DNA of 5,560 nt from a virus (IMGVR_UViG_2734482785_000015), one strand, 5' to 3'; shown: positions 1 through 5,560, numbered from the stretch's first letter. Notes: generated by a model not told the origin, from the sequence alone. Numbers and translations are program-made.

Positions 1-1242
1 ATGGCACGAAAAACCACTCCACTAACCATCACGGAGATCAAAAATGCACGACCAGGAGAAAAAGAATACACCCTGCAGGATGGCGGAGGATTGTTTCTTC
101 TGGTGAAGCCCTCCGGATCAAAAATCTGGCGCTTTACGTATTACCGACCCACTGACAAAAAACGAACCATCGTTAGTCTTGGTCCGCTGAATGATGTTTC
201 TCTGTCAGAAGCCAGAGAGCGACGAAACGAATACAGGGGACTTATAGCGAAGGGAGTTGACCCACAGGACCACGAACGCCGGAAACGTGAAGCAGAGAGC
301 CGGAAAAAGGGCAACACGTTCGAAAAAGTTGCCTCTGACTGGTACGAGATGAAAAAAGGCCAGAATCTCGCTTACAACACGATTAAGGATATCTGGCGAT
401 CCATGGAAAAATACGTATTCCCGTACATCGGAAAAACGCCAATAGATACCCTCACCGCTCGCCGCTTTGTTGAGATACTCACCCCCATTAAGGCGCGTGG
501 CAACCTGGAAACCCTGAAACGCGTTTTACAGCGCATCAATGAGGTGATGGATTTTGCTGCCAACAGTGGTCTGATTGACATCAACACCGCCGCGAACGTC
601 CGTAAGGCATTCCCTACCCCCACCAAAAAGCACATGCCAACCATCCGACCGGAACAGCTACCGCAGCTAATGCACGATTTATCGGTCGCCAGCATAGAAC
701 GGCAAACCAGATTGCTGATTGAGTGGCAGCTACTGACCGTAGCACGCCCCGCCGAAGCAGCCGCCACACGCTGGGAAGAAATAAACCTCGATGCCGAAAC
801 CTGGACGATTCCAGCCGGACGCATGAAGATGCGCCGTGACCATGTGATCCCCCTTTGTGGTCAGGCTATGGCTGTACTGGAAACCATGAAGCCAATCAGC
901 GCACACAGGGAACACGTTTTTCCCAGCCTTAAAAACCCGATGCTGCCAATGAGCAGCCAGACCGCTAACGCCGCATTGCGCCGGATGGGTTACGCTGGTG
1001 TGCTGGTGTCTCACGGATTACGCGCCATATTCAGCACAGCAGCGAACGAGGAAGGATTCGAACCGGACGTAATCGAGGCCGCGCTCGCACACGTGGACAC
1101 GAACGAGGTAAGGCGAGCATATAACCGAAGTAACTACCTGGAAAAACGTGTAGTACTTATGCGCTGGTGGGGTGAATTTGTGGAAACCGCAGCAACCGGA
1201 GTGACCATAGCCAGTGGTAAAAGGGGTATCCGTGCGGTGTGA
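1..1242 (+). CDS. int: Tyrosine-type site-specific integrase, P4-like family
   Basis: 413-aa ORF from ATG at 1 to TGA at 1240-1242. The N-terminus (MARKTTPLTITEIK...DGGGLFLLVKPSGSKIWRFTYY) is typical of the arm-binding region of P4-type integrases. C-terminal catalytic-type motifs are readable: ARPAE (Arg codon 745-747), HGLR (1012-1023), LAH, and Tyr374 (1120-1122) ten residues after the second His. Confidence 0.93.
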   Translation: MARKTTPLTITEIKNARPGEKEYTLQDGGGLFLLVKPSGSKIWRFTYYRPTDKKRTIVSLGPLNDVSLSEARERRNEYRGLIAKGVDPQDHERRKREAESRKKGNTFEKVASDWYEMKKGQNLAYNTIKDIWRSMEKYVFPYIGKTPIDTLTARRFVEILTPIKARGNLETLKRVLQRINEVMDFAANSGLIDINTAANVRKAFPTPTKKHMPTIRPEQLPQLMHDLSVASIERQTRLLIEWQLLTVARPAEAAATRWEEINLDAETWTIPAGRMKMRRDHVIPLCGQAMAVLETMKPISAHREHVFPSLKNPMLPMSSQTANAALRRMGYAGVLVSHGLRAIFSTAANEEGFEPDVIEAALAHVDTNEVRRAYNRSNYLEKRVVLMRWWGEFVETAATGVTIASGKRGIRAV

Positions 1243-1355
1243 CTGTACAAAAAACCAGTACAACCAGTGCAAACCATGCTAAACCATCGTATAATCGCCT
1301 ATCTCCTCAACAGACAAGGAAAAACCCGACTCATGAGAAATCGAGATTTATTGAA

Positions 1356-1598
1356 ATGGTCTGGCACGAAAAATCATCCAATGTCTGCGGTGAAGGGCTG
1401 CAACTGGCGTTAATGGCAAATCGTGAATTCTGGTCAACATACGATCCGGAAGACAAATCAACAGCCCCCACAAAACACGAGGTAGTCAGTTTTTTACGCT
1501 CGCGTGGCGCATCGAAAAATCTGGCTGAAAGCATCGACAAGGTGCTGAGGCCCACCAGCCTTAAATGTGGTGGGCGACCTAAGAAGTGGAAACGGTAA
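1356..1598 (+). CDS. Hypothetical small protein (80 aa from ATG 1356; frame is open from GTG 1239 giving 119 aa; alternative ATG at 1413)
   Basis: Open frame with reasonable enterobacterial codon choice (ctg, gcg, cgt, gaa, aaa), ending TAA 1596-1598 and followed 5 nt later by a strong intrinsic terminator. No strong Shine-Dalgarno at any candidate start, so the start is uncertain. No family recognised. Confidence 0.4.
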   Translation: MVWHEKSSNVCGEGLQLALMANREFWSTYDPEDKSTAPTKHEVVSFLRSRGASKNLAESIDKVLRPTSLKCGGRPKKWKR

Positions 1599-1603
1599 TC
1601 ACA

Positions 1604-1633
1604 ATAGCGGCCCCTTGCGGTCGCTATTTTTTT
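1604..1633 (+). terminator. Rho-independent terminator (plus strand)
   Basis: Stem ATAGCGGCC (1604-1612) pairs with GGTCGCTAT (1619-1627) with one G-T wobble, around a CCTTGC loop, followed by a T run (1627-1633). The minus-strand reading lacks a U tract, so it is unidirectional. Confidence 0.65.
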
Positions 1634-1660
1634 GCAAAAAGAAAGCGTAATCAATGAGAT

Positions 1661-1703
1661 AAAAAACAGTGAGTACCGTTTTAAAACGGTGAGTACTGTT
1701 TTT
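1661..1703. promoter_or_regulatory. AT-rich imperfect 44-bp palindrome with a perfect 16-bp core and embedded direct repeats, upstream of alpA
   Basis: Perfect palindrome ACCGTTTTAAAACGGT at 1675-1690. Outer arms AAAAAACAGT (1661-1670) and ACTGTTTTT (1695-1703) are complementary. Direct repeats GTGAGTACCGTTTT (1669-1682) and GTGAGTACTGTTTT (1689-1702) sit 20 bp apart. Could be an operator or a weak bidirectional terminator/attenuator; function not determinable from sequence. Confidence 0.5.
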
Positions 1704-1767
1704 CCCGCCCTGCCCTGTTTTACCGTATTTATCACCGGAATACGCCGGATTAACGAGGTAAAACACG

Positions 1768-1974
1768 ATGGAAGTAATCAGAAAAATTCTTACCCGTCAG
1801 GAAGTAAAAAATATTCTGCGCATCAAGGCAGACAGTTCGCTACAGGACATGATCAACGCCGGAAAATTCCCGAAAGGCTTCAAAATCGGTCTGCGTCGTG
1901 TTGGCTGGTATGAAGATGAAGTGCTGGCCTGGCTGAAAGAGCGCGAGGAAGAAGCGCGCGGAACGGCTGCGTAA
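1768..1974 (+). CDS. alpA: AlpA-family (P4 Vis-like, MerR-superfamily HTH) transcriptional regulator / excision activator
   Basis: 68-aa ORF with GAGG (1755-1758) 9 nt upstream of ATG 1768. The translation carries the AlpA-type pattern ILTRQEVKNILRIKADSSLQDMINAGKFPKGFKIGLRRVGWYEDEVLAWL. It lies just downstream of a P4-type integrase, as in P4-like cryptic prophages. Confidence 0.85.
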   Translation: MEVIRKILTRQEVKNILRIKADSSLQDMINAGKFPKGFKIGLRRVGWYEDEVLAWLKEREEEARGTAA

Positions 1975-2120
1975 TGGTGTGAGGCGTAACGCGATGAACA
2001 TAACAAAAAGCGCCCCGTTGCCGGAGCGCCCTTGCGAACAATTAACCTACTGCGCAAAAAATGAATCAGTGCAGTGGGATTATATCAACCGTGTAGCGAA
2101 GCGCCACAATTGCCGGATAA

Positions 2121-2153
2121 CAGGCAAAACAAAGGCCACCTGCTACGGTGGCC
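2121..2153 (-). terminator. Rho-independent terminator (minus strand)
   Basis: GC stem GGCCACC (2134-2140) / GGTGGCC (2147-2153) with a 6-nt loop. On the minus strand it is followed by UUUGUUUUG (complement of 2121-2133). No T run follows on the plus strand. Confidence 0.55.
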
Positions 2154-2256
2154 ATTCGACACAAGCTACACGTTATCCCCAACGCATGAGCATTGCCAAC
2201 AATGCCACATTTGCGGCTGGTGGGCAATGTGATCAGTGTGCTGGCTTGCTGGTGGG

Positions 2257-2451
2257 CTATTCCTGCTCTTTAACATCGTCATGCCGCGATGTTTTCCAGG
2301 TATGCGATCCCATTTTTGTGCGCCTGTACTCTTTTAAGAACTTCTCAAGGGCAAACGCACATGGCGCAAATCTTTCTGATTCATGCTCTATCTTTCTGCG
2401 CCGTCTTTTCCGTGCCGGTGATGGTGTATTGGTTGATTCTTTGTTGGTCAT
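2257..2451 (-). CDS. Questionable small basic ORF (64 aa, KRRRRK-containing) inside the transcribed 3' region of the regulator gene
   Basis: ATG-to-TAG ORF on the minus strand between the regulator stop (2509) and the minus-strand terminator. Weak or absent Shine-Dalgarno (AGG 8-9 nt upstream) and several rare codons (AGA, AGG, ATA, CGG) argue against it; position between a gene and its terminator argues mildly for it. Confidence 0.2.
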   Translation of the reverse strand: MTNKESTNTPSPARKRRRRKIEHESERFAPCAFALEKFLKEYRRTKMGSHTWKTSRHDDVKEQE

Positions 2452-2508
2452 TCTGTGTACCTGTAAAGCAATGCGCCGGAGTTCCTCACACCACGGCGAT
2501 GATAGTTA

Positions 2509-2814
2509 TTATTCTGATTCTTTGGCCTTGCGGCGCTGGAGTTCTTCACGTGCGACGGTGACGAGCTGCCCGATCTCCTCGGCAGCTTTGACTCCGATTT
2601 TTTCCACCTGCGCCAGCGCATCGAGCGAAGAAACCAGGGGATTTTCTCCGCTTCCTTCTGCCTGGCGGCGGGCGATCTCACCGCGCATGGCGGTTACTAT
2701 GAATCCGGCGTTGCTTTCACCGTCCAGTTTTACGGATTCCATGCCTTCAAAAGCATCATGTGGGATACGAATTGAAATCTGTTTTGATTTGTCGTTGATA
2801 GTGTTTTTTGCCAT
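2509..2814 (-). CDS. Putative ribbon-helix-helix (CopG/Arc/MetJ-like) DNA-binding regulator, candidate repressor of the divergent operon
   Basis: Minus-strand ORF. The best start is the ATG at 2812-2814 (101 aa, MAKNTINDKSKQISIRIP...), 6 nt downstream of AGGAGA (complement of 2821-2826). The track start at 2853 adds 13 residues without a ribosome-binding site. The N-terminus KQISIRIPHDAFEGMESVKL...SNAGFIVTAMRGEIARR fits an RHH beta-strand, helix, helix pattern. It diverges from an operator-bearing promoter region. Confidence 0.7.
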   Translation of the reverse strand: MAKNTINDKSKQISIRIPHDAFEGMESVKLDGESNAGFIVTAMRGEIARRQAEGSGENPLVSSLDALAQVEKIGVKAAEEIGQLVTVAREELQRRKAKESE

Positions 2815-2836
2815 GTGCATTCTCCTAAACAAAAGA

Positions 2837-2913
2837 TGTGATTCAGTATACACAAAAAAGAATCACAAAAAATACTTGACCTGTGATTCAGTTAAATTTA
2901 ATTTAAATCACAC
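2837..2913. promoter_or_regulatory. Divergent promoter region with two inverted-repeat operator units
   Basis: Unit 1: TGTGATTCA (2837-2845), 13-bp AT-rich spacer, AGAATCACA (2859-2867). Unit 2: TGTGATTCA (2882-2890), 14-bp spacer, AAATCACA (2905-2912). Plus-strand sigma70-like promoter: -35 TTGACC (2875-2880), 17-bp spacer, -10 TAATTT (2898-2903), overlapping unit 2. Minus-strand -10 TATACT (complement of 2845-2850) overlaps unit 1. Confidence 0.6.
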
Positions 2914-2937
2914 CTCAGTAAGAGGATGTAAACGACA

Positions 2938-2971
2938 ACGCCCCGAACTGTTTGCGGCAGTAGCGGGGCGT
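2938..2971 (+). other. Stable stem-loop in the 5' leader of the Icd-like operon (no U tract)
   Basis: ACGCCCCG (2938-2945) pairs with CGGGGCGT (2964-2971); an inner CTG/CAG pair sits within the loop. It lies between the predicted promoter and the ribosome-binding site of the first gene. It is not followed by a T run, so it is not a canonical intrinsic terminator. Confidence 0.4.
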
Positions 2972-3007
2972 CTAACCACCAACGATAGAAAGCGTATCGA
3001 GGTAGCT

Positions 3008-3214
3008 ATGAGAAATCATACCATACACCCGCAAGGGCGGGACTCGCACAACCTGAATAAATACATCTGGCGTTTTATCGCCCTGAGTACGGCACAACCG
3101 CGCGTGATTACCATCGTGGCCACCAGCGAACAGGAAGCGCGCCAGCAATCTCCTGATGGCTGCGTGATGGTATTCGCCGCCCGTATTCGCCAGGAGGTGC
3201 ACCATGTGCAATAA
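3008..3214 (+). CDS. Icd-like (Ash family) small protein; positional analogue of P4 kil
   Basis: 68-aa ORF with GAGG (2999-3002) 5 nt upstream of ATG 3008. The translation MRNHTIHPQGRDSHNLNKYIWRFIALSTAQPRVITIVATSEQEARQQSPDGCVMVFAARIRQEVHHVQ matches my recollection of the host-cell-division-inhibitor Icd-like proteins of P4-like prophages. It is the C-terminal in-frame part of the artefactual 1979-3214 track ORF. Confidence 0.8.
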   Translation: MRNHTIHPQGRDSHNLNKYIWRFIALSTAQPRVITIVATSEQEARQQSPDGCVMVFAARIRQEVHHVQ

Positions 3215-3440
3215 CACCCGTCCGGACGCAGCCGCCGAAGCTATCAAAACGCTAATGCACGCGCTGATTGATATTTCTGTTATCGCGGACATGGCACATA
3301 AGCACGCCACCAGTGAAACAGAATATGCCGGGGCTTTCGTTCCTCACTCACTGGCTGTTATGCAATTTAGTGCTGATATGGCGCTGAATGAGGCAGGCAA
3401 AATTCTTACCGCAGATATTCAAGGGGCGCACCATGCATGA
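3204..3440 (+). CDS. Hypothetical protein (78 aa)
   Basis: ATG 3204 is preceded by GGAGG (3194-3198) and overlaps the Icd-like stop by 11 nt, consistent with translational coupling. No family recognised. Confidence 0.6.
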   Translation: MCNNTRPDAAAEAIKTLMHALIDISVIADMAHKHATSETEYAGAFVPHSLAVMQFSADMALNEAGKILTADIQGAHHA

Positions 3441-3660
3441 TGACCGTTATTTTAAATCAATGAGCCATGCAGAAAATGCGCTGACTAACAGTGAATGCTT
3501 GCGGCAAATATTGCTTATCTGGCTTGATGGTTTAAGTGATGCGCCGGAAGATGAACGTGAATCTAATCTTGCTGGTGCGTTTATTTCATTACTCGATACG
3601 GTAATCGTCGAATTAAATAAAGCGATCGAAATTCACGATAAAAAAATAAACGCGGAATAA
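3433..3660 (+). CDS. Hypothetical acidic protein (75 aa from ATG 3433; track start 3388 is an in-frame alternative)
   Basis: ATG 3433 is preceded by AAGGGG (3421-3426) and overlaps the stop of the preceding gene (ATGCATGA, 3433-3440). The upstream ATG at 3388 has no Shine-Dalgarno. No family recognised. Confidence 0.55.
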   Translation: MHDDRYFKSMSHAENALTNSECLRQILLIWLDGLSDAPEDERESNLAGAFISLLDTVIVELNKAIEIHDKKINAE

Positions 3661-3665
3661 AAACC

Positions 3666-3953
3666 ATGAAACAGAAAAATTCTGGCTTTACTGCCAGCGG
3701 CCCCGCTCGGTCTGAAATCCGCCCCGGCGATATTTTCAAAGATAACTACGGCGGCACGATAACGATAAAAGACGTGGAAGAACGGCGCATCACCTACCGT
3801 CGTGAAGGCTACGACTATGACTGCGTGATGCCTGTTTATCAGTTCCGGCGTGATTTTAAGCTGGTGGGCCATCGTAAAGCCGTAAATCAGAAACGTGCAG
3901 CAAGCTATATCCGCAAAATCCGTGAAATGCTGGTCGCAGGGGGTAAGAAATGA
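3666..3953 (+). CDS. Hypothetical protein (95 aa), tentatively DUF4222-like
   Basis: ATG 3666 lies 5 nt after the previous stop; the TGA stop at 3951-3953 overlaps the ATG of the downstream replication gene (ATGA). The motif ITYRREGYDYDCVMPVYQFRRDF resembles small proteins seen upstream of primases in enterobacterial P4-like islands; this is recollection only. Confidence 0.6.
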   Translation: MKQKNSGFTASGPARSEIRPGDIFKDNYGGTITIKDVEERRITYRREGYDYDCVMPVYQFRRDFKLVGHRKAVNQKRAASYIRKIREMLVAGGKK

Positions 3954-5560
3954 AACTGGCACCGAACGTAAAACTGTTACCGAAAGATAAAGGCGAGGAT
4001 GCAGTGATTTTTGCGGGGGATGACGCATACAGCCATGCAGAGCATTACATGCAGGGCGGAGAAGCCAGAAAGCGCGGCGACAAAATACCACCTGTTTATC
4101 TCGGACGGCGTGACCTGGGTAATCTGGAAAACCTGCGTATTGTGGATGAGGGTCGGTCACGCGCCATCGTCAGACGTGCCGGAAAACTGGATGACAAACT
4201 GGCGCTACAGATTGAAACCCTGCTGGCAGTGGCTGGTGTTAAAGAAGCCTGTTTTTGTGACGAGAACGGCGATTTACTGGAGGACTGGACACCACAGCTT
4301 GCCCGACTGAAAGACGAATACGAGCGCGGGGAAAGTCTTGTGTTGCCCTTAAAGAAAAAAGCCACCACAAGCCCGGGTGATGATGAATTAAAGCCCCGCG
4401 TTGAAAGCCGCGCCGATGGTGTTTTCTGGGTAACGCCCAAAGTGGATAAGCAGTCAGGCGAAATTATCCGGCCTGAAACGTGGTTATGTTCCACGCTTGA
4501 ACTACTGGGAACGGGGACAATCGGCAAAGAGCATTACCGCGTGATGCGCTGGAAAAAGCCAGCAAATCATGAAGTCATCACAATGGCGATTCCGTGCGGT
4601 GGCATTGGCGACCGTGACGGCTGGCGGCTACTGAAAGACCACGGACTGAACGTAACAACCAACGGTAAATACAGAGCTATCCTGGCTGACTGGATGCAGT
4701 TAAGCGGAAGTCATGAGGAATGGCAGTTAAGCACAACAACGGGCTGGCATTTTGGCGCGTACATCATGCCGGACGGTTCGGTCATTGGTGAGTCTGAAAA
4801 ACAGATTCTGTTTACCGGAAAAACAGCCGCTGTTAATGGCTATTCCGTGGCAGGAACGGCGGAGGGCTGGCGCGATACCGTTGCGCGGCTGGCTGGAGGC
4901 AATCCCTTAATGATGCTGGGTGTGGCGGTATCGCTATCTGCACCATTAATCGGGCTGGTGGGGGCTGACGGCTTCGGGGTACATCTTTTCGAACAGTCCA
5001 CAGCAGGGAAAACCACCACACAGAACATCGCATCAAGTTTATGGGGAGAGCCGGACGCACAACGGCTGACCTGGTACGGTACAGCGTTAGGTATCGCCAA
5101 CGAGGCAGAGGCACACAACGACGGGCTGTTACCCCTGGATGAAATAGGCCAGGCTGGAAACGCGCGGGAGGTGTCAACGTCTGCTTATACGCTGTTTAAC
5201 GGTTCCGGGAAATTACAGGGGGCGAAGGACGGCGGCAACAGGGAGATAAAACACTGGCGAACGGTGGCAATCAGTACCGGAGAAATGGACGTTGAAACAT
5301 TCCTCAAAACGGAGGGGATAAAAGTCAAGGCGGGGCAGCTTGTCCGCCTGCTTAACGTGCCGATGGAAAAAGCCACACAATTTCACGAATACAGCACCGG
5401 AAAGGCGCACGCAGACGCGTTAAAAGATGCCTGGACAGAAAATCACGGGGCGGCGGGTCGTGAATGGGTTAAATGGCTGGCAGACCACCAGCAGGAGGCA
5501 AAGGACACGGTAAGGGCATGCCGTGAACGGTGGCGCAACCTGATACCGGAGAGCTACGGC
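3950..5560 (+). CDS. Primase/helicase-like replication protein (P-loop NTPase, P4 alpha-like / DUF927-like), 3'-truncated by the window end
   Basis: Frame 2 is open for 537 codons from ATG 3950 to the last base of the window; I translated it by hand and found no stop. Deviant Walker A STAGKTTT at 4997-5020 and Walker B LLPLDE at 5126-5143. Antisense and alternate-frame track ORFs in this span are short and compositionally odd. It is absent from the supplied track only because it lacks an in-window stop. Confidence 0.85.
   Translation, partial: MKLAPNVKLLPKDKGEDAVIFAGDDAYSHAEHYMQGGEARKRGDKIPPVYLGRRDLGNLENLRIVDEGRSRAIVRRAGKLDDKLALQIETLLAVAGVKEACFCDENGDLLEDWTPQLARLKDEYERGESLVLPLKKKATTSPGDDELKPRVESRADGVFWVTPKVDKQSGEIIRPETWLCSTLELLGTGTIGKEHYRVMRWKKPANHEVITMAIPCGGIGDRDGWRLLKDHGLNVTTNGKYRAILADWMQLSGSHEEWQLSTTTGWHFGAYIMPDGSVIGESEKQILFTGKTAAVNGYSVAGTAEGWRDTVARLAGGNPLMMLGVAVSLSAPLIGLVGADGFGVHLFEQSTAGKTTTQNIASSLWGEPDAQRLTWYGTALGIANEAEAHNDGLLPLDEIGQAGNAREVSTSAYTLFNGSGKLQGAKDGGNREIKHWRTVAISTGEMDVETFLKTEGIKVKAGQLVRLLNVPMEKATQFHEYSTGKAHADALKDAWTENHGAAGREWVKWLADHQQEAKDTVRACRERWRNLIPESYG

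What the first reader, a model, noticed from the sequence alone, without database searches (positions are those of the whole stretch)
3950..5560. Large replication-protein gene missing from the supplied ORF track
A 537-codon open frame starts at ATG 3950, overlapping the upstream stop as ATGA, and runs to the last base of the window with no stop. It carries a deviant Walker A (STAGKTTT, 4997-5020) and a Walker B (LLPLDE, 5126-5143). This matches the primase/helicase proteins that follow the immunity region in P4-like satellites. All track ORFs listed in 3960-5410 are antisense or out-of-frame and should not be annotated.
Basis: seen in the sequence. Interest (0 to 1): 0.5.

Follow-up and report, generated by a model that had tools for sequence, protein, structure and literature searches.

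The report
Phage-satellite replication helicase gene, cut off
The open frame is real: it is the first three quarters of the replication initiator-helicase gene of a common E. coli phage-inducible chromosomal island, which is already annotated in public genomes, and it was absent from the ORF list only because it runs off the end of the window.

Summary
Observation confirmed. Positions 3950-5560 (+) form a 537-codon open frame. The ATG overlaps the upstream stop as ATGA. The P-loop motifs lie at the stated coordinates.

Four public E. coli contigs contain the window at 100% identity. In them the frame continues 513 nt further, giving a 707-aa protein.

The protein belongs to DUF927 (Pfam E=1e-45). 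This is the family of the staphylococcal SCCmec helicase Cch and of a solved staphylococcal pathogenicity-island protein (PDB 8TCH, profile E=2e-17). The literature describes this family as MCM-like, self-loading initiator-helicases.

A textbook iteron origin follows the stop codon: 2x TGCGGGTTA, an AT-rich stretch, then 4-5x TAACCCGCA.

The surrounding element has integrase, AlpA, an Icd-like gene, DUF4222, rep, ori, SSB, PerC and TerS, and sits beside tRNA-Pro after yejM. This is a Gram-negative PICI, not a P4-like satellite. It has no alpha, sid, delta, psu or epsilon homologues. The protein shares no domain with P4 alpha.

No primase domain was found. The N-terminal ~130 aa form a small alpha/beta module of unknown function. 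The same module heads four unrelated helicase cores in related islands.

Verdict: ordinary and already annotated.

The parts
3950..5560 (+). 5' 76% (aa 1-537 of 707) of the island's replication initiator-helicase gene (pri-rep / 'DUF927 domain-containing protein'). The true stop lies 513 nt beyond the window end (window-equivalent position 6073).
   Evidence: Open frame. The window is 100% identical to L005, L007, L008 and L009, where the gene is called as 707 aa. RefSeq annotates the same start in homologues.
3950..4339 (+). N-terminal module (aa 1-~130): a small alpha/beta domain of unknown function. Invariant residues include A4-P5-N6-x-K8, F21-A22-G23, D44, P48, R69 and G78. It is shared by replication proteins built on four different helicase cores.
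4469..5251 (+). DUF927 domain (aa 174-434): a beta-rich N-terminal part plus the P-loop ATPase core.
   Evidence: Pfam PF06048 E=1e-45. PDB 8tch_A E=1.1e-11 as a single sequence and 1.9e-17 as a profile. 5dgk_A (Cch) E=2.8e-3 and 7e-4 respectively.
4988..5020 (+). Walker A, FEQSTAGKTTT (aa 347-357). K354 is the AAA codon at 5009-5011. The first glycine is replaced by E348.
   Evidence: G353, K354, T355, T356 and T357 are invariant in 26 homologues. It aligns with GSTSTGKT of 8tch and GQSSTGKS of Cch.
5126..5143 (+). Walker B, LLPLDE (aa 393-398; D397, E398).
   Evidence: Invariant in 26 homologues. It aligns with IVFDE of Cch.
5267..5284 (+). AISTGE (aa 440-445): candidate sensor-1 strand. This assignment is inferred.
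   Evidence: Invariant. It aligns with ILISTGE of 8tch and VISTSE of Cch.
5333..5362 (+). GQLVRLLNVP (aa 462-471): R466 is a candidate arginine finger. This assignment is inferred.
   Evidence: G462-N469 are invariant in 26 homologues. The position after sensor 1 matches the R-containing segment of Cch.
3666..3953 (+). DUF4222 gene, translationally coupled (ATGA) to the replication gene.
   Evidence: Pfam PF13973 E=6e-23. It also lies immediately upstream of the RepA-type variants of the replication gene in E. coli genomes.
3008..3660 (+). Start of the rightward early operon: an Icd-like gene (3008-3214) and two small conserved genes (3204-3440 and 3433-3660).
   Evidence: NF033153 E=8.6e-20. 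PHROGs 6196, 5146 and 2196.
1..1974 (+). Integration zone: tyrosine integrase (1-1242), a small hypothetical gene, and an AlpA-family regulator (1768-1974).
   Evidence: Pfam and NCBIfam. tRNA-Pro lies about 210 bp upstream of int in homologues.
2257..2814 (-). The only leftward genes: a YlcI/YnfO-family protein (2509-2814) and a 64-aa protein (2257-2451).
   Evidence: NF041551 E=3.7e-18. phrog_6522 E=2e-58 and phrog_21027 E=5e-29.

Best explanation
The frame encodes residues 1-537 of a 707-aa replication initiator-helicase. This is the 'Pri-Rep' or 'Primase' gene of a Gram-negative phage-inducible chromosomal island (PICI) integrated beside tRNA-Pro downstream of yejM in E. coli. It belongs to the DUF927 lineage, which includes SCCmec Cch and the solved staphylococcal island protein 8TCH. 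The literature places SaPIbov1 Rep and Rep2 in the same lineage and describes the family as MCM-like AAA+. Proposed mechanism, by analogy with those characterised relatives: after the helper phage induces the island and the rightward operon is switched on, the protein is made together with the coupled DUF4222 product. Its C-terminal domain, which lies outside the window, recognises the TAACCCGCA iterons that flank an AT-rich stretch directly after its own stop codon. It melts that stretch and self-assembles there as a ring. It then uses the Walker A/B site (K354, D397/E398) to translocate 3'->5' and unwind the island DNA for the host replisome. The island's own SSB gene lies just downstream. 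Shown here: the gene, its family, its intact motifs, its full length, the iteron origin and the island context. Inferred: hexamer formation, polarity, iteron binding by the C-terminal domain, and priming by host DnaG.
For: The ORF and motifs are verified. Pfam DUF927 scores 157 bits against a cutoff of 22.6. Profile search against the PDB gives 8tch_A at 1.9e-17 over positions 209-606, and Cch 5dgk_A at 7e-4. Walker A, Walker B, ISTGE and the R466 segment are invariant in 26 homologues of 63-84% identity. The exact source contigs give a 707-aa product. The C-terminal 170 aa give a weak Cch HTH_56 hit at E=0.0032. The origin follows the stop: 2 forward iterons, a stretch of 77-80% AT, and 4+1 reverse iterons in 21-bp phase. 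Two replication-gene variants carrying the same N-terminal module but other helicase cores each have their own iteron sequence downstream: the RepA/AAA_25 type with AAAGTGGGC, which replaces this gene at the same chromosomal locus (L006), and the SF3/D5 type with GGTGAACA in the separate phage record vB_KppS-Ant (L003). So gene and origin travel as a cognate cassette. The island synteny is int-alpA-...-DUF4222-rep-ori-SSB-ProQ-PerC-TerS, and it matches the E. coli 042 island. Literature: Gram-negative PICIs carry int, alpA and pri-rep, followed by an origin with two iteron sets flanking an AT-rich region; a pri-ori fragment drives plasmid replication; and E. coli has 4 Pri-Rep variants distinct from P4 alpha (PMC6092414). 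DUF927 was counted within the PICI 'Primase' family (PMC10111431). Cch contains DUF927, is related to SaPIbov1 Rep, is MCM-like, and has 3'-5' polarity (PMC7581432, PMC9371898).
Against: There is no biochemical or genetic data for this protein. The full-length AF2 model was poor (pLDDT 57.5, ATPase core below 50), so the MCM-like fold was not confirmed structurally here. The C-terminal DNA-binding domain hit is below Pfam's threshold and lies outside the window. Similarity to Cch itself is weak: 36 bits against the 700-bit equivalog cutoff. Walker A lacks its first glycine. The island contains no identifiable primase, so how primers are made is unknown.
Confidence: 0.85

Rival explanations
1. 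It is a P4-alpha-type (DnaG-Toprim primase + D5/SF3 helicase + origin-binding) protein of a P4-like satellite.
For: It is a large gene at the end of an early operon that begins with an Icd-like gene, as in P4. Int and an AlpA/Vis homologue are present. Some databases name relatives 'DNA primase'.
Against: None of alpha's Pfam or TIGRFAM domains is found. BLASTP E=0.025. hhalign probability 0.5%. P4 is not among the 22 phage records hit. The full island has no sid, delta, psu, epsilon or alpha homologue.
Confidence: 0.02
2. It is a true bifunctional primase-helicase: the N-terminal ~130-aa module is a divergent Toprim-type primase that makes the primers at the island origin.
Confidence: 0.08
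3. It is a non-replicative island ATPase, for example an anti-phage or phage-interference NTPase that happens to carry a DUF927 domain.
For: PICIs carry interference and defence genes. DUF927 is formally a 'domain of unknown function'.
Against: An iteron/AT-rich origin lies directly downstream and changes together with the gene. An SSB gene lies next door. The position is the same as the experimentally validated pri-rep of E. coli PICIs (PMC6092414). The closest solved relatives are replicative helicases.
Confidence: 0.03

Closest known systems
Pri-Rep / 'Primase' gene of Gram-negative PICIs (EcCICFT073, EcCIO42; Fillol-Salom et al. 2018, PMC6092414; Mageeney et al. 2023, PMC10111431)
   Same: It holds the same position in the same island architecture: int, alpA, small rightward genes, rep, then an origin with two iteron sets around an AT-rich stretch, then SSB, PerC and TerS. 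The E. coli 042 island shows the same synteny, including YlcI/YnfO, Icd-like and DUF4222. DUF927 is listed among the Pfams of the PICI 'Primase' family.
   Different: The E. coli 042 island carries the RepA/AAA_25 core behind the same N-terminal module, whereas this island carries the DUF927 core. Which of the four published E. coli Pri-Rep variants this one corresponds to was not checked. That the L011 island is the named EcCIO42 is my inference.
Staphylococcal Cch (SCCmec, PDB 5DGK) and the solved pathogenicity-island protein 8TCH; the Rep2/SaPIbov1-Rep class of self-loading helicases (PMC9371898, PMC7581432)
   Same: It has a DUF927 ATPase core with aligned Walker A, Walker B and ISTGE motifs. 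There is a helical region after the ATPase. The iteron origin lies immediately 3' of the gene, with oppositely oriented iterons around an AT-rich centre. There is a weak Cch-type C-terminal HTH hit.
   Different: Similarity is only remote (profile E 2e-17 and 7e-4; 36 bits against 700 for the Cch1 equivalog). It has an extra ~130-aa N-terminal module that is absent from the aligned part of the staphylococcal proteins. The host is a proteobacterium. E replaces G at the first Walker A position.
Phage P4 alpha protein
   Same: It plays the analogous role (satellite-encoded replication protein with a P-loop NTPase) and sits at an analogous place, at the end of an early operon that starts with an Icd-like ORF.
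   Different: The helicase superfamily differs (SF3/D5 against DUF927). Alpha has a Zn-ribbon + Toprim primase, and this protein does not. There is no detectable sequence homology. P4's ori and crr are arranged differently.

Membership tests
Pfam DUF927 (PF06048) | Score above the curated gathering threshold | tested here: met
   157 bits against 22.6, E=1e-45, aa 174-434 covering profile positions 21-283 of 284. The full-length homologue scores 158.6 bits.
Cch / SaPI Rep2-type MCM-like self-loading initiator-helicases | Significant sequence similarity to solved members, with Walker A and Walker B aligned | tested here: met
   8tch_A 1.9e-17 and 5dgk_A 7e-4 with profile A2. The motifs align.
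Cch / SaPI Rep2-type MCM-like self-loading initiator-helicases | Iteron origin immediately downstream of the gene, with iterons in opposite orientation around an AT-rich region | tested here: met
   L005 12437-12625 (window-equivalent about 6102-6290): 2x TGCGGGTTA, a stretch of 77-80% AT, 4x TAACCCGCA at 21-bp spacing, and 1 degenerate copy. This lies outside the window.
Cch / SaPI Rep2-type MCM-like self-loading initiator-helicases | C-terminal winged-helix/HTH domain that binds the iterons | tested here: inconclusive
   HTH_56 (Cch HTH) scores E=0.0032, 17.9 bits against a cutoff of 26.2, on the last 170 aa of the full-length homologue. The AF2 model of this region had low confidence.
Cch / SaPI Rep2-type MCM-like self-loading initiator-helicases | MCM-like AAA+ fold (pre-sensor-II insert clade) | tested here: inconclusive
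   The full-length AF2 model has pLDDT 57.5, and residues 344-473 are below 50. It was not suitable for a fold search.
Cch / SaPI Rep2-type MCM-like self-loading initiator-helicases | Hexameric ring, ATP-dependent 3'->5' helicase activity | not testable with these tools
   This needs purified protein.
NCBIfam NF047345 SCCmec Cch1 (equivalog) | Score above the equivalog cutoff | tested here: not met
   32-36 bits against 700. It is a remote relative, not an orthologue.
P4 alpha / 'phage/plasmid primase, P4 family' (TIGR01613; D5_N, DUF5906, Pox_D5) | SF3/D5-type helicase core and Primase_Cterm signature | tested here: not met
   P4 alpha hits all of these. The window protein hits none at E<=1 (Pfam) or E<=0.01 (NCBIfam). 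BLASTP and hhalign are not significant.
DnaG-type (Toprim) primase | Zn ribbon, Toprim with catalytic Glu and DxD acidic motifs | tested here: not met
P4-like satellites (seven core components, de Sousa et al. 2023, PMC10085698) | Integrase + AlpA + alpha + epsilon (Ash) + Sid + Delta + Psu | tested here: not met
   tblastn of all P4 proteins against the window and the two full islands detected only Int (33% identity) and Vis/AlpA (35% over 37 aa).
Gram-negative PICI (PMC6092414, PMC10085698) | Integrase, AlpA-type regulator, primase-replicase module with iteron origin, mostly unidirectional rightward genes | tested here: met
   Only two small genes are leftward.
Gram-negative PICI (PMC6092414, PMC10085698) | Packaging/hijack module (small terminase and/or capsid morphogenesis gene) | tested here: met
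   A TerS gene (PF07471 Phage_Nu1) lies downstream in the exact-match contigs and in the RefSeq homologues. No capsid-morphogenesis gene was identified. This is outside the window.
Gram-negative PICI (PMC6092414, PMC10085698) | Induction, replication and packaging dependent on a helper phage | not testable with these tools
   This needs an experiment.

The most novel reading that the evidence does not exclude
The conserved N-terminal ~130-aa module is found at the extreme N-terminus of enterobacterial PICI and cfPICI replication proteins built on four unrelated helicase/ATPase cores (DUF927, SF3/D5, RepA/AAA_25, VapE-like). It has only 61 cluster representatives among 1.84 billion. It may be a previously undescribed adaptor, possibly a catalytically dead Toprim relic. 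It could couple whichever helicase the island carries to a common partner, such as host DnaG or the replisome, a helper-phage factor, or the co-translated DUF4222 protein. Its conserved 5' coding sequence may also serve as the recombination handle for swapping rep-ori cassettes.
Probability: 0.25. Interest if true: 0.4.

Novelty: already known. Interest (0 to 1): 0.12.

Why it matters
For annotation, the window should carry one partial CDS, 3950 to beyond 5560 (+), named as a PICI replication initiator-helicase (DUF927 family). The nine overlapping shadow ORFs should be dropped. The labels 'DNA primase' and 'P4-like' should not be propagated. Biologically the gene is a routine part of a very common class of E. 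coli islands. The only mildly interesting point is the shared N-terminal module and the evident rep-ori cassette exchange behind it. This bears on how satellites swap replication specificities while keeping some common interaction.

Tried and rejected
1. P4 alpha homology was rejected. I tried BLASTP, profile-sequence hhalign of the N-domain, Pfam and NCBIfam domain comparison, and tblastn against the phage collection.

2. A full-length AF2 model of a 96%-identical homologue, built from 26 sequences, gave pLDDT 57.5 with the ATPase core unmodelled. The alignment was too shallow (at least 63% identity). The model was not used for a fold search, so the MCM-like fold is taken from the literature and from sequence homology only.

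4. Rfam found nothing on the whole window (E<=0.1) or on 2780-3250 (E<=10). There is no C4/isrK-type immunity RNA, only chance-level hits.

5. The sigma-70 promoter scan found fewer sites than shuffled sequence (1 against 5.0), so it was uninformative.

6. I checked whether DUF4222 also precedes the SF3-type variant in vB_KppS-Ant. The small upstream ORFs there have no Pfam hit, so the DUF4222-to-N-domain link holds only for the DUF927 and RepA variants that I examined.

7. The literature search found no paper describing the shared N-terminal module. Absence from this library does not prove that it is new.

Full report
OBSERVATION. The frame from ATG 3950 to the last base of the window (5560) translates to 537 residues without a stop. 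The preceding in-frame stop is at 3944, so 3950 is the first possible start. It overlaps the TGA of the upstream gene (3666-3953) as ATGA, and a purine-rich stretch (AGGGGG) lies about 7 nt upstream. STAGKTTT maps to aa 350-357 (nt 4997-5020). LLPLDE maps to aa 393-398 (nt 5126-5143). Both are exactly as reported. Given the window's composition, a 537-codon open frame has a chance probability of about 3e-12. The nine ORFs of at least 40 aa that overlap the gene are all antisense or in the +1 frame. The gene is 'missing' from the ORF list only because that tool does not list ORFs that run off an end of the source.

EXTENSION. The upstream 95-aa protein was used to look up contigs. Four public E. 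coli assemblies (L005, L007, L008, L009) contain the whole 5560-nt window at 100% identity. In them the frame continues for another 513 nt and ends with a stop, giving a 707-aa product. Its first 537 residues are identical to the window translation. Gene callers and RefSeq use the same start codon. The gene is intact, and the window holds 76% of it.

WHAT THE PROTEIN IS. Pfam gives a single strong hit, DUF927 (PF06048): 157 bits against a cutoff of 22.6, E=1e-45, aa 174-434. NCBIfam gives only a remote hit to the SCCmec helicase Cch1, at 32-36 bits against an equivalog cutoff of 700. PHROGs places it in phrog_1139, which is labelled 'DNA primase' (E=7e-131). However, the match starts at profile position 243 of 895, so the protein has nothing corresponding to the first ~240 positions of that profile.

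Against solved structures, the single sequence hits 8tch_A, a staphylococcal 'pathogenicity island protein' (E=1e-11), and 5dgk_A, Cch 'active helicase' (E=3e-3). A profile of 26 homologues improves these to 1.9e-17 (positions 209-606 against 98-479) and 7e-4. In these alignments FEQSTAGKTT lines up with GSTSTGKT and GQSSTGKS. LLPLDE lines up with the Walker B of Cch (IVFDE). AISTGE lines up with ILISTGE and VISTSE. So the Walker A is deviant only in that E348 replaces the first glycine. G353-K354-T355, D397-E398, the ISTGE strand and G462-N469 (with R466) are invariant across 26 homologues of 63-84% identity.

According to the literature, Cch contains DUF927, is related to the SaPIbov1 Rep helicase, closely resembles MCM, and unwinds 3'->5' (PMC7581432). 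The Rep2 class of SaPI Reps is assigned to the MCM (SF6) group. These Reps are self-loading initiator-helicases whose C-terminal winged helix binds iterons placed just after the gene (PMC9371898). The last 170 residues of the full-length protein give a sub-threshold hit to the Cch HTH domain (E=0.0032). My attempt to confirm the fold failed: the full-length AF2 model had pLDDT 57.5 and an unmodelled ATPase core.

THE ORIGIN. Directly after the stop codon, the exact-match contigs and the 98.8%-identical RefSeq island carry two TGCGGGTTA repeats. These are followed by a stretch of 77-80% A+T. Then come four TAACCCGCA repeats in the opposite orientation at exact 21-bp spacing, plus a degenerate fifth. 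[quoted passage not shown]

Contig L006 has the same chromosomal locus. Its nucleotides are 100% identical through the DUF4222 gene and the first ~45 nt of the replication gene. After that point the gene encodes a 468-aa RepA/AAA_25-type protein and is followed by different iterons, AAAGTGGGC/GCCCACTTT. The SF3/D5-type variant in the 16.5-kb 'phage' vB_KppS-Ant is followed by GGTGAACA/TGTTCACC repeats. Gene and origin therefore change together, as expected for an initiator and its cognate site.

THE ELEMENT. In the window and its extensions the order is as follows: tRNA-Pro (after yejM); integrase; a small hypothetical gene; an AlpA-family regulator; two leftward genes (a 64-aa protein and a YlcI/YnfO-family protein); an Icd-like gene; two small genes; DUF4222; the DUF927 gene; the origin; a hypothetical gene; SSB; ProQ/FinO; PerC; Nu1-type TerS; a second PerC; a Panacea-domain gene; then yejO.

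This is the published Gram-negative PICI layout: an integration zone with int and alpA, a dynamic zone, a replication zone with Primase and SSB, and a late zone (PMC10111431). The published features are int, alpA, pri-rep, ori, PerC and terS (PMC6092414). The E. coli 042 island between cspD and clpS shows the same synteny, with a RepA-type replication gene. I infer that this island is the published EcCIO42.

All 13 P4 proteins were searched against the window and two full islands. Only Int (33% identity) and Vis/AlpA (35% over 37 aa) were detected. Alpha, epsilon, sid, delta, psu, cII, gop and beta were not. Under the seven-component definition of P4-like satellites (PMC10085698), the element fails five components. 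One real link to P4 exists. The first gene of the rightward operon carries the Icd-like domain NF033153 (E=8.6e-20), and so does P4's 'cI' ORF (E=7.8e-21). No C4/isrK-type RNA was detected.

NOT P4 ALPHA, AND NO DEMONSTRABLE PRIMASE. P4 alpha consists of Zn_Ribbon_Prim, Toprim_3, D5_N, DUF5906 and Pox_D5, and reaches the TIGR01613 cutoff. The window protein has none of these. BLASTP gives E=0.025 at best, and hhalign of the N-domain profile against alpha gives probability 0.5%.

THE ONE UNUSUAL POINT. The N-terminal module is rare and modular. A full HMMER scan of 1.84 billion cluster representatives found only 61 hits at E<=1e-3, nearly all starting within the first few residues of the protein. 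The long hits, together with vB_KppS-Ant and L006, combine it with four unrelated cores: DUF927, D5_N+DUF5906+Pox_D5, AAA_25/RepA and VapE-like.

Within DUF927 proteins the module is mosaic. For example, P0008 is 85% identical to the window protein overall but only 48% identical in the module. The module stays conserved while the iterons differ, so it is unlikely to be the origin-binding domain. In E. coli genomes it is preceded by DUF4222 in both the DUF927 and RepA variants.

Fillol-Salom et al. mention four allelic Pri-Rep variants in E. coli PICIs (PMC6092414). I found no description of a shared N-terminal module in the searchable literature. That is weak evidence of novelty.

VERDICT. It is partly wrong: it is not P4-like, not alpha/D5-type, and has no demonstrable primase. 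The gene is already annotated as 'DUF927 domain-containing protein' in RefSeq. Clusters of over 1,000 member sequences exist. About 1,900 of 5,426 complete E. coli genomes match some part of the window. The gene belongs to a described class of PICI replication genes. It is an ordinary finding, and the fix is an annotation one.

Noticed in passing
window 3950-4339; L006 10285-10680; L003 9938-10300: The N-terminal ~130 aa of the replication protein is a rare module: 61 hits among 1.84 billion cluster representatives, nearly all at the protein's N-terminus. It is fused to four unrelated helicase/ATPase cores (DUF927, SF3/D5, RepA/AAA_25, VapE-like) in enterobacterial PICI and cfPICI elements. 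Its fold is Rossmann-like. It is possibly Toprim-related, but the catalytic acidic residues are absent.
   Followed up: yes
L006 9500-11900 compared with L005 (window-equivalent 3165-5565): At the same chromosomal locus, a metagenome contig is 100% identical in nucleotides through DUF4222 and the first ~45 nt of the replication gene. It then switches to a RepA-type gene with its own iterons. This is a rep-ori cassette exchange with a breakpoint inside the conserved MKLAPNVKLLPKDK coding stretch.
   Followed up: partly
L005 12437-12625 (window-equivalent about 6102-6290, outside the window): Iteron origin directly after the stop codon: 2x TGCGGGTTA, an AT-rich core, 4x TAACCCGCA at exact 21-bp (two helical turns) spacing, and one degenerate copy.
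   Followed up: yes
window 3008-3214 (+) and upstream 2939-2970: The first gene of the rightward operon carries the Icd-like domain NF033153, which is also present in P4's 'cI' ORF. A 7-bp GC-only stem (CGCCCCG ... CGGGGCG, 18-nt loop) lies just upstream of it. No C4/isrK or other Rfam family matches there, so whether an immunity RNA exists is open.
   Followed up: partly
window 1979-3214 (+): A 411-codon open frame runs antisense across the two leftward genes (2257-2451 and 2509-2814, both with strong PHROG hits) and into the Icd-like gene. Gene callers on several public contigs call it as a 406-aa protein with no Pfam hit, while RefSeq annotates the small genes instead. It is probably a spurious long call, but the length of the open antisense frame is striking.
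   Followed up: no
window 3666-3953 (+): The DUF4222 gene is translationally coupled (ATGA) to the replication gene. It sits immediately upstream of both the DUF927 and the RepA variants in many E. coli genomes. It may be a replication accessory protein. It was not recognisable upstream of the SF3 variant in vB_KppS-Ant.
   Followed up: partly
window 1603-1628 (+), 2153-2134 (-), 2033-2006 (-): There are strong terminator-like hairpins after the small ORF ending at 1598, and two in tandem downstream of the leftward gene pair. This suggests that the int-proximal genes, alpA and the leftward pair are separate transcription units.
   Followed up: no
database labels: Relatives are variously named 'DNA primase' (PHROG 1139 and some NCBI records). 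Neither an AEP nor a Toprim/Zn-ribbon primase domain is detectable in this variant, so the label is probably inherited from primase-fused members of the family.
   Followed up: yes
L003 (LR881103.1, 'Escherichia phage vB_KppS-Ant', 16.5 kb): This record is deposited as a phage, but it has int, AlpA, a Pri-Rep-type gene with iterons, capsid, portal and terminase genes, and only a tape-measure gene annotated from the tail module. This is the gene set of a capsid-forming PICI rather than a complete phage.
   Followed up: no
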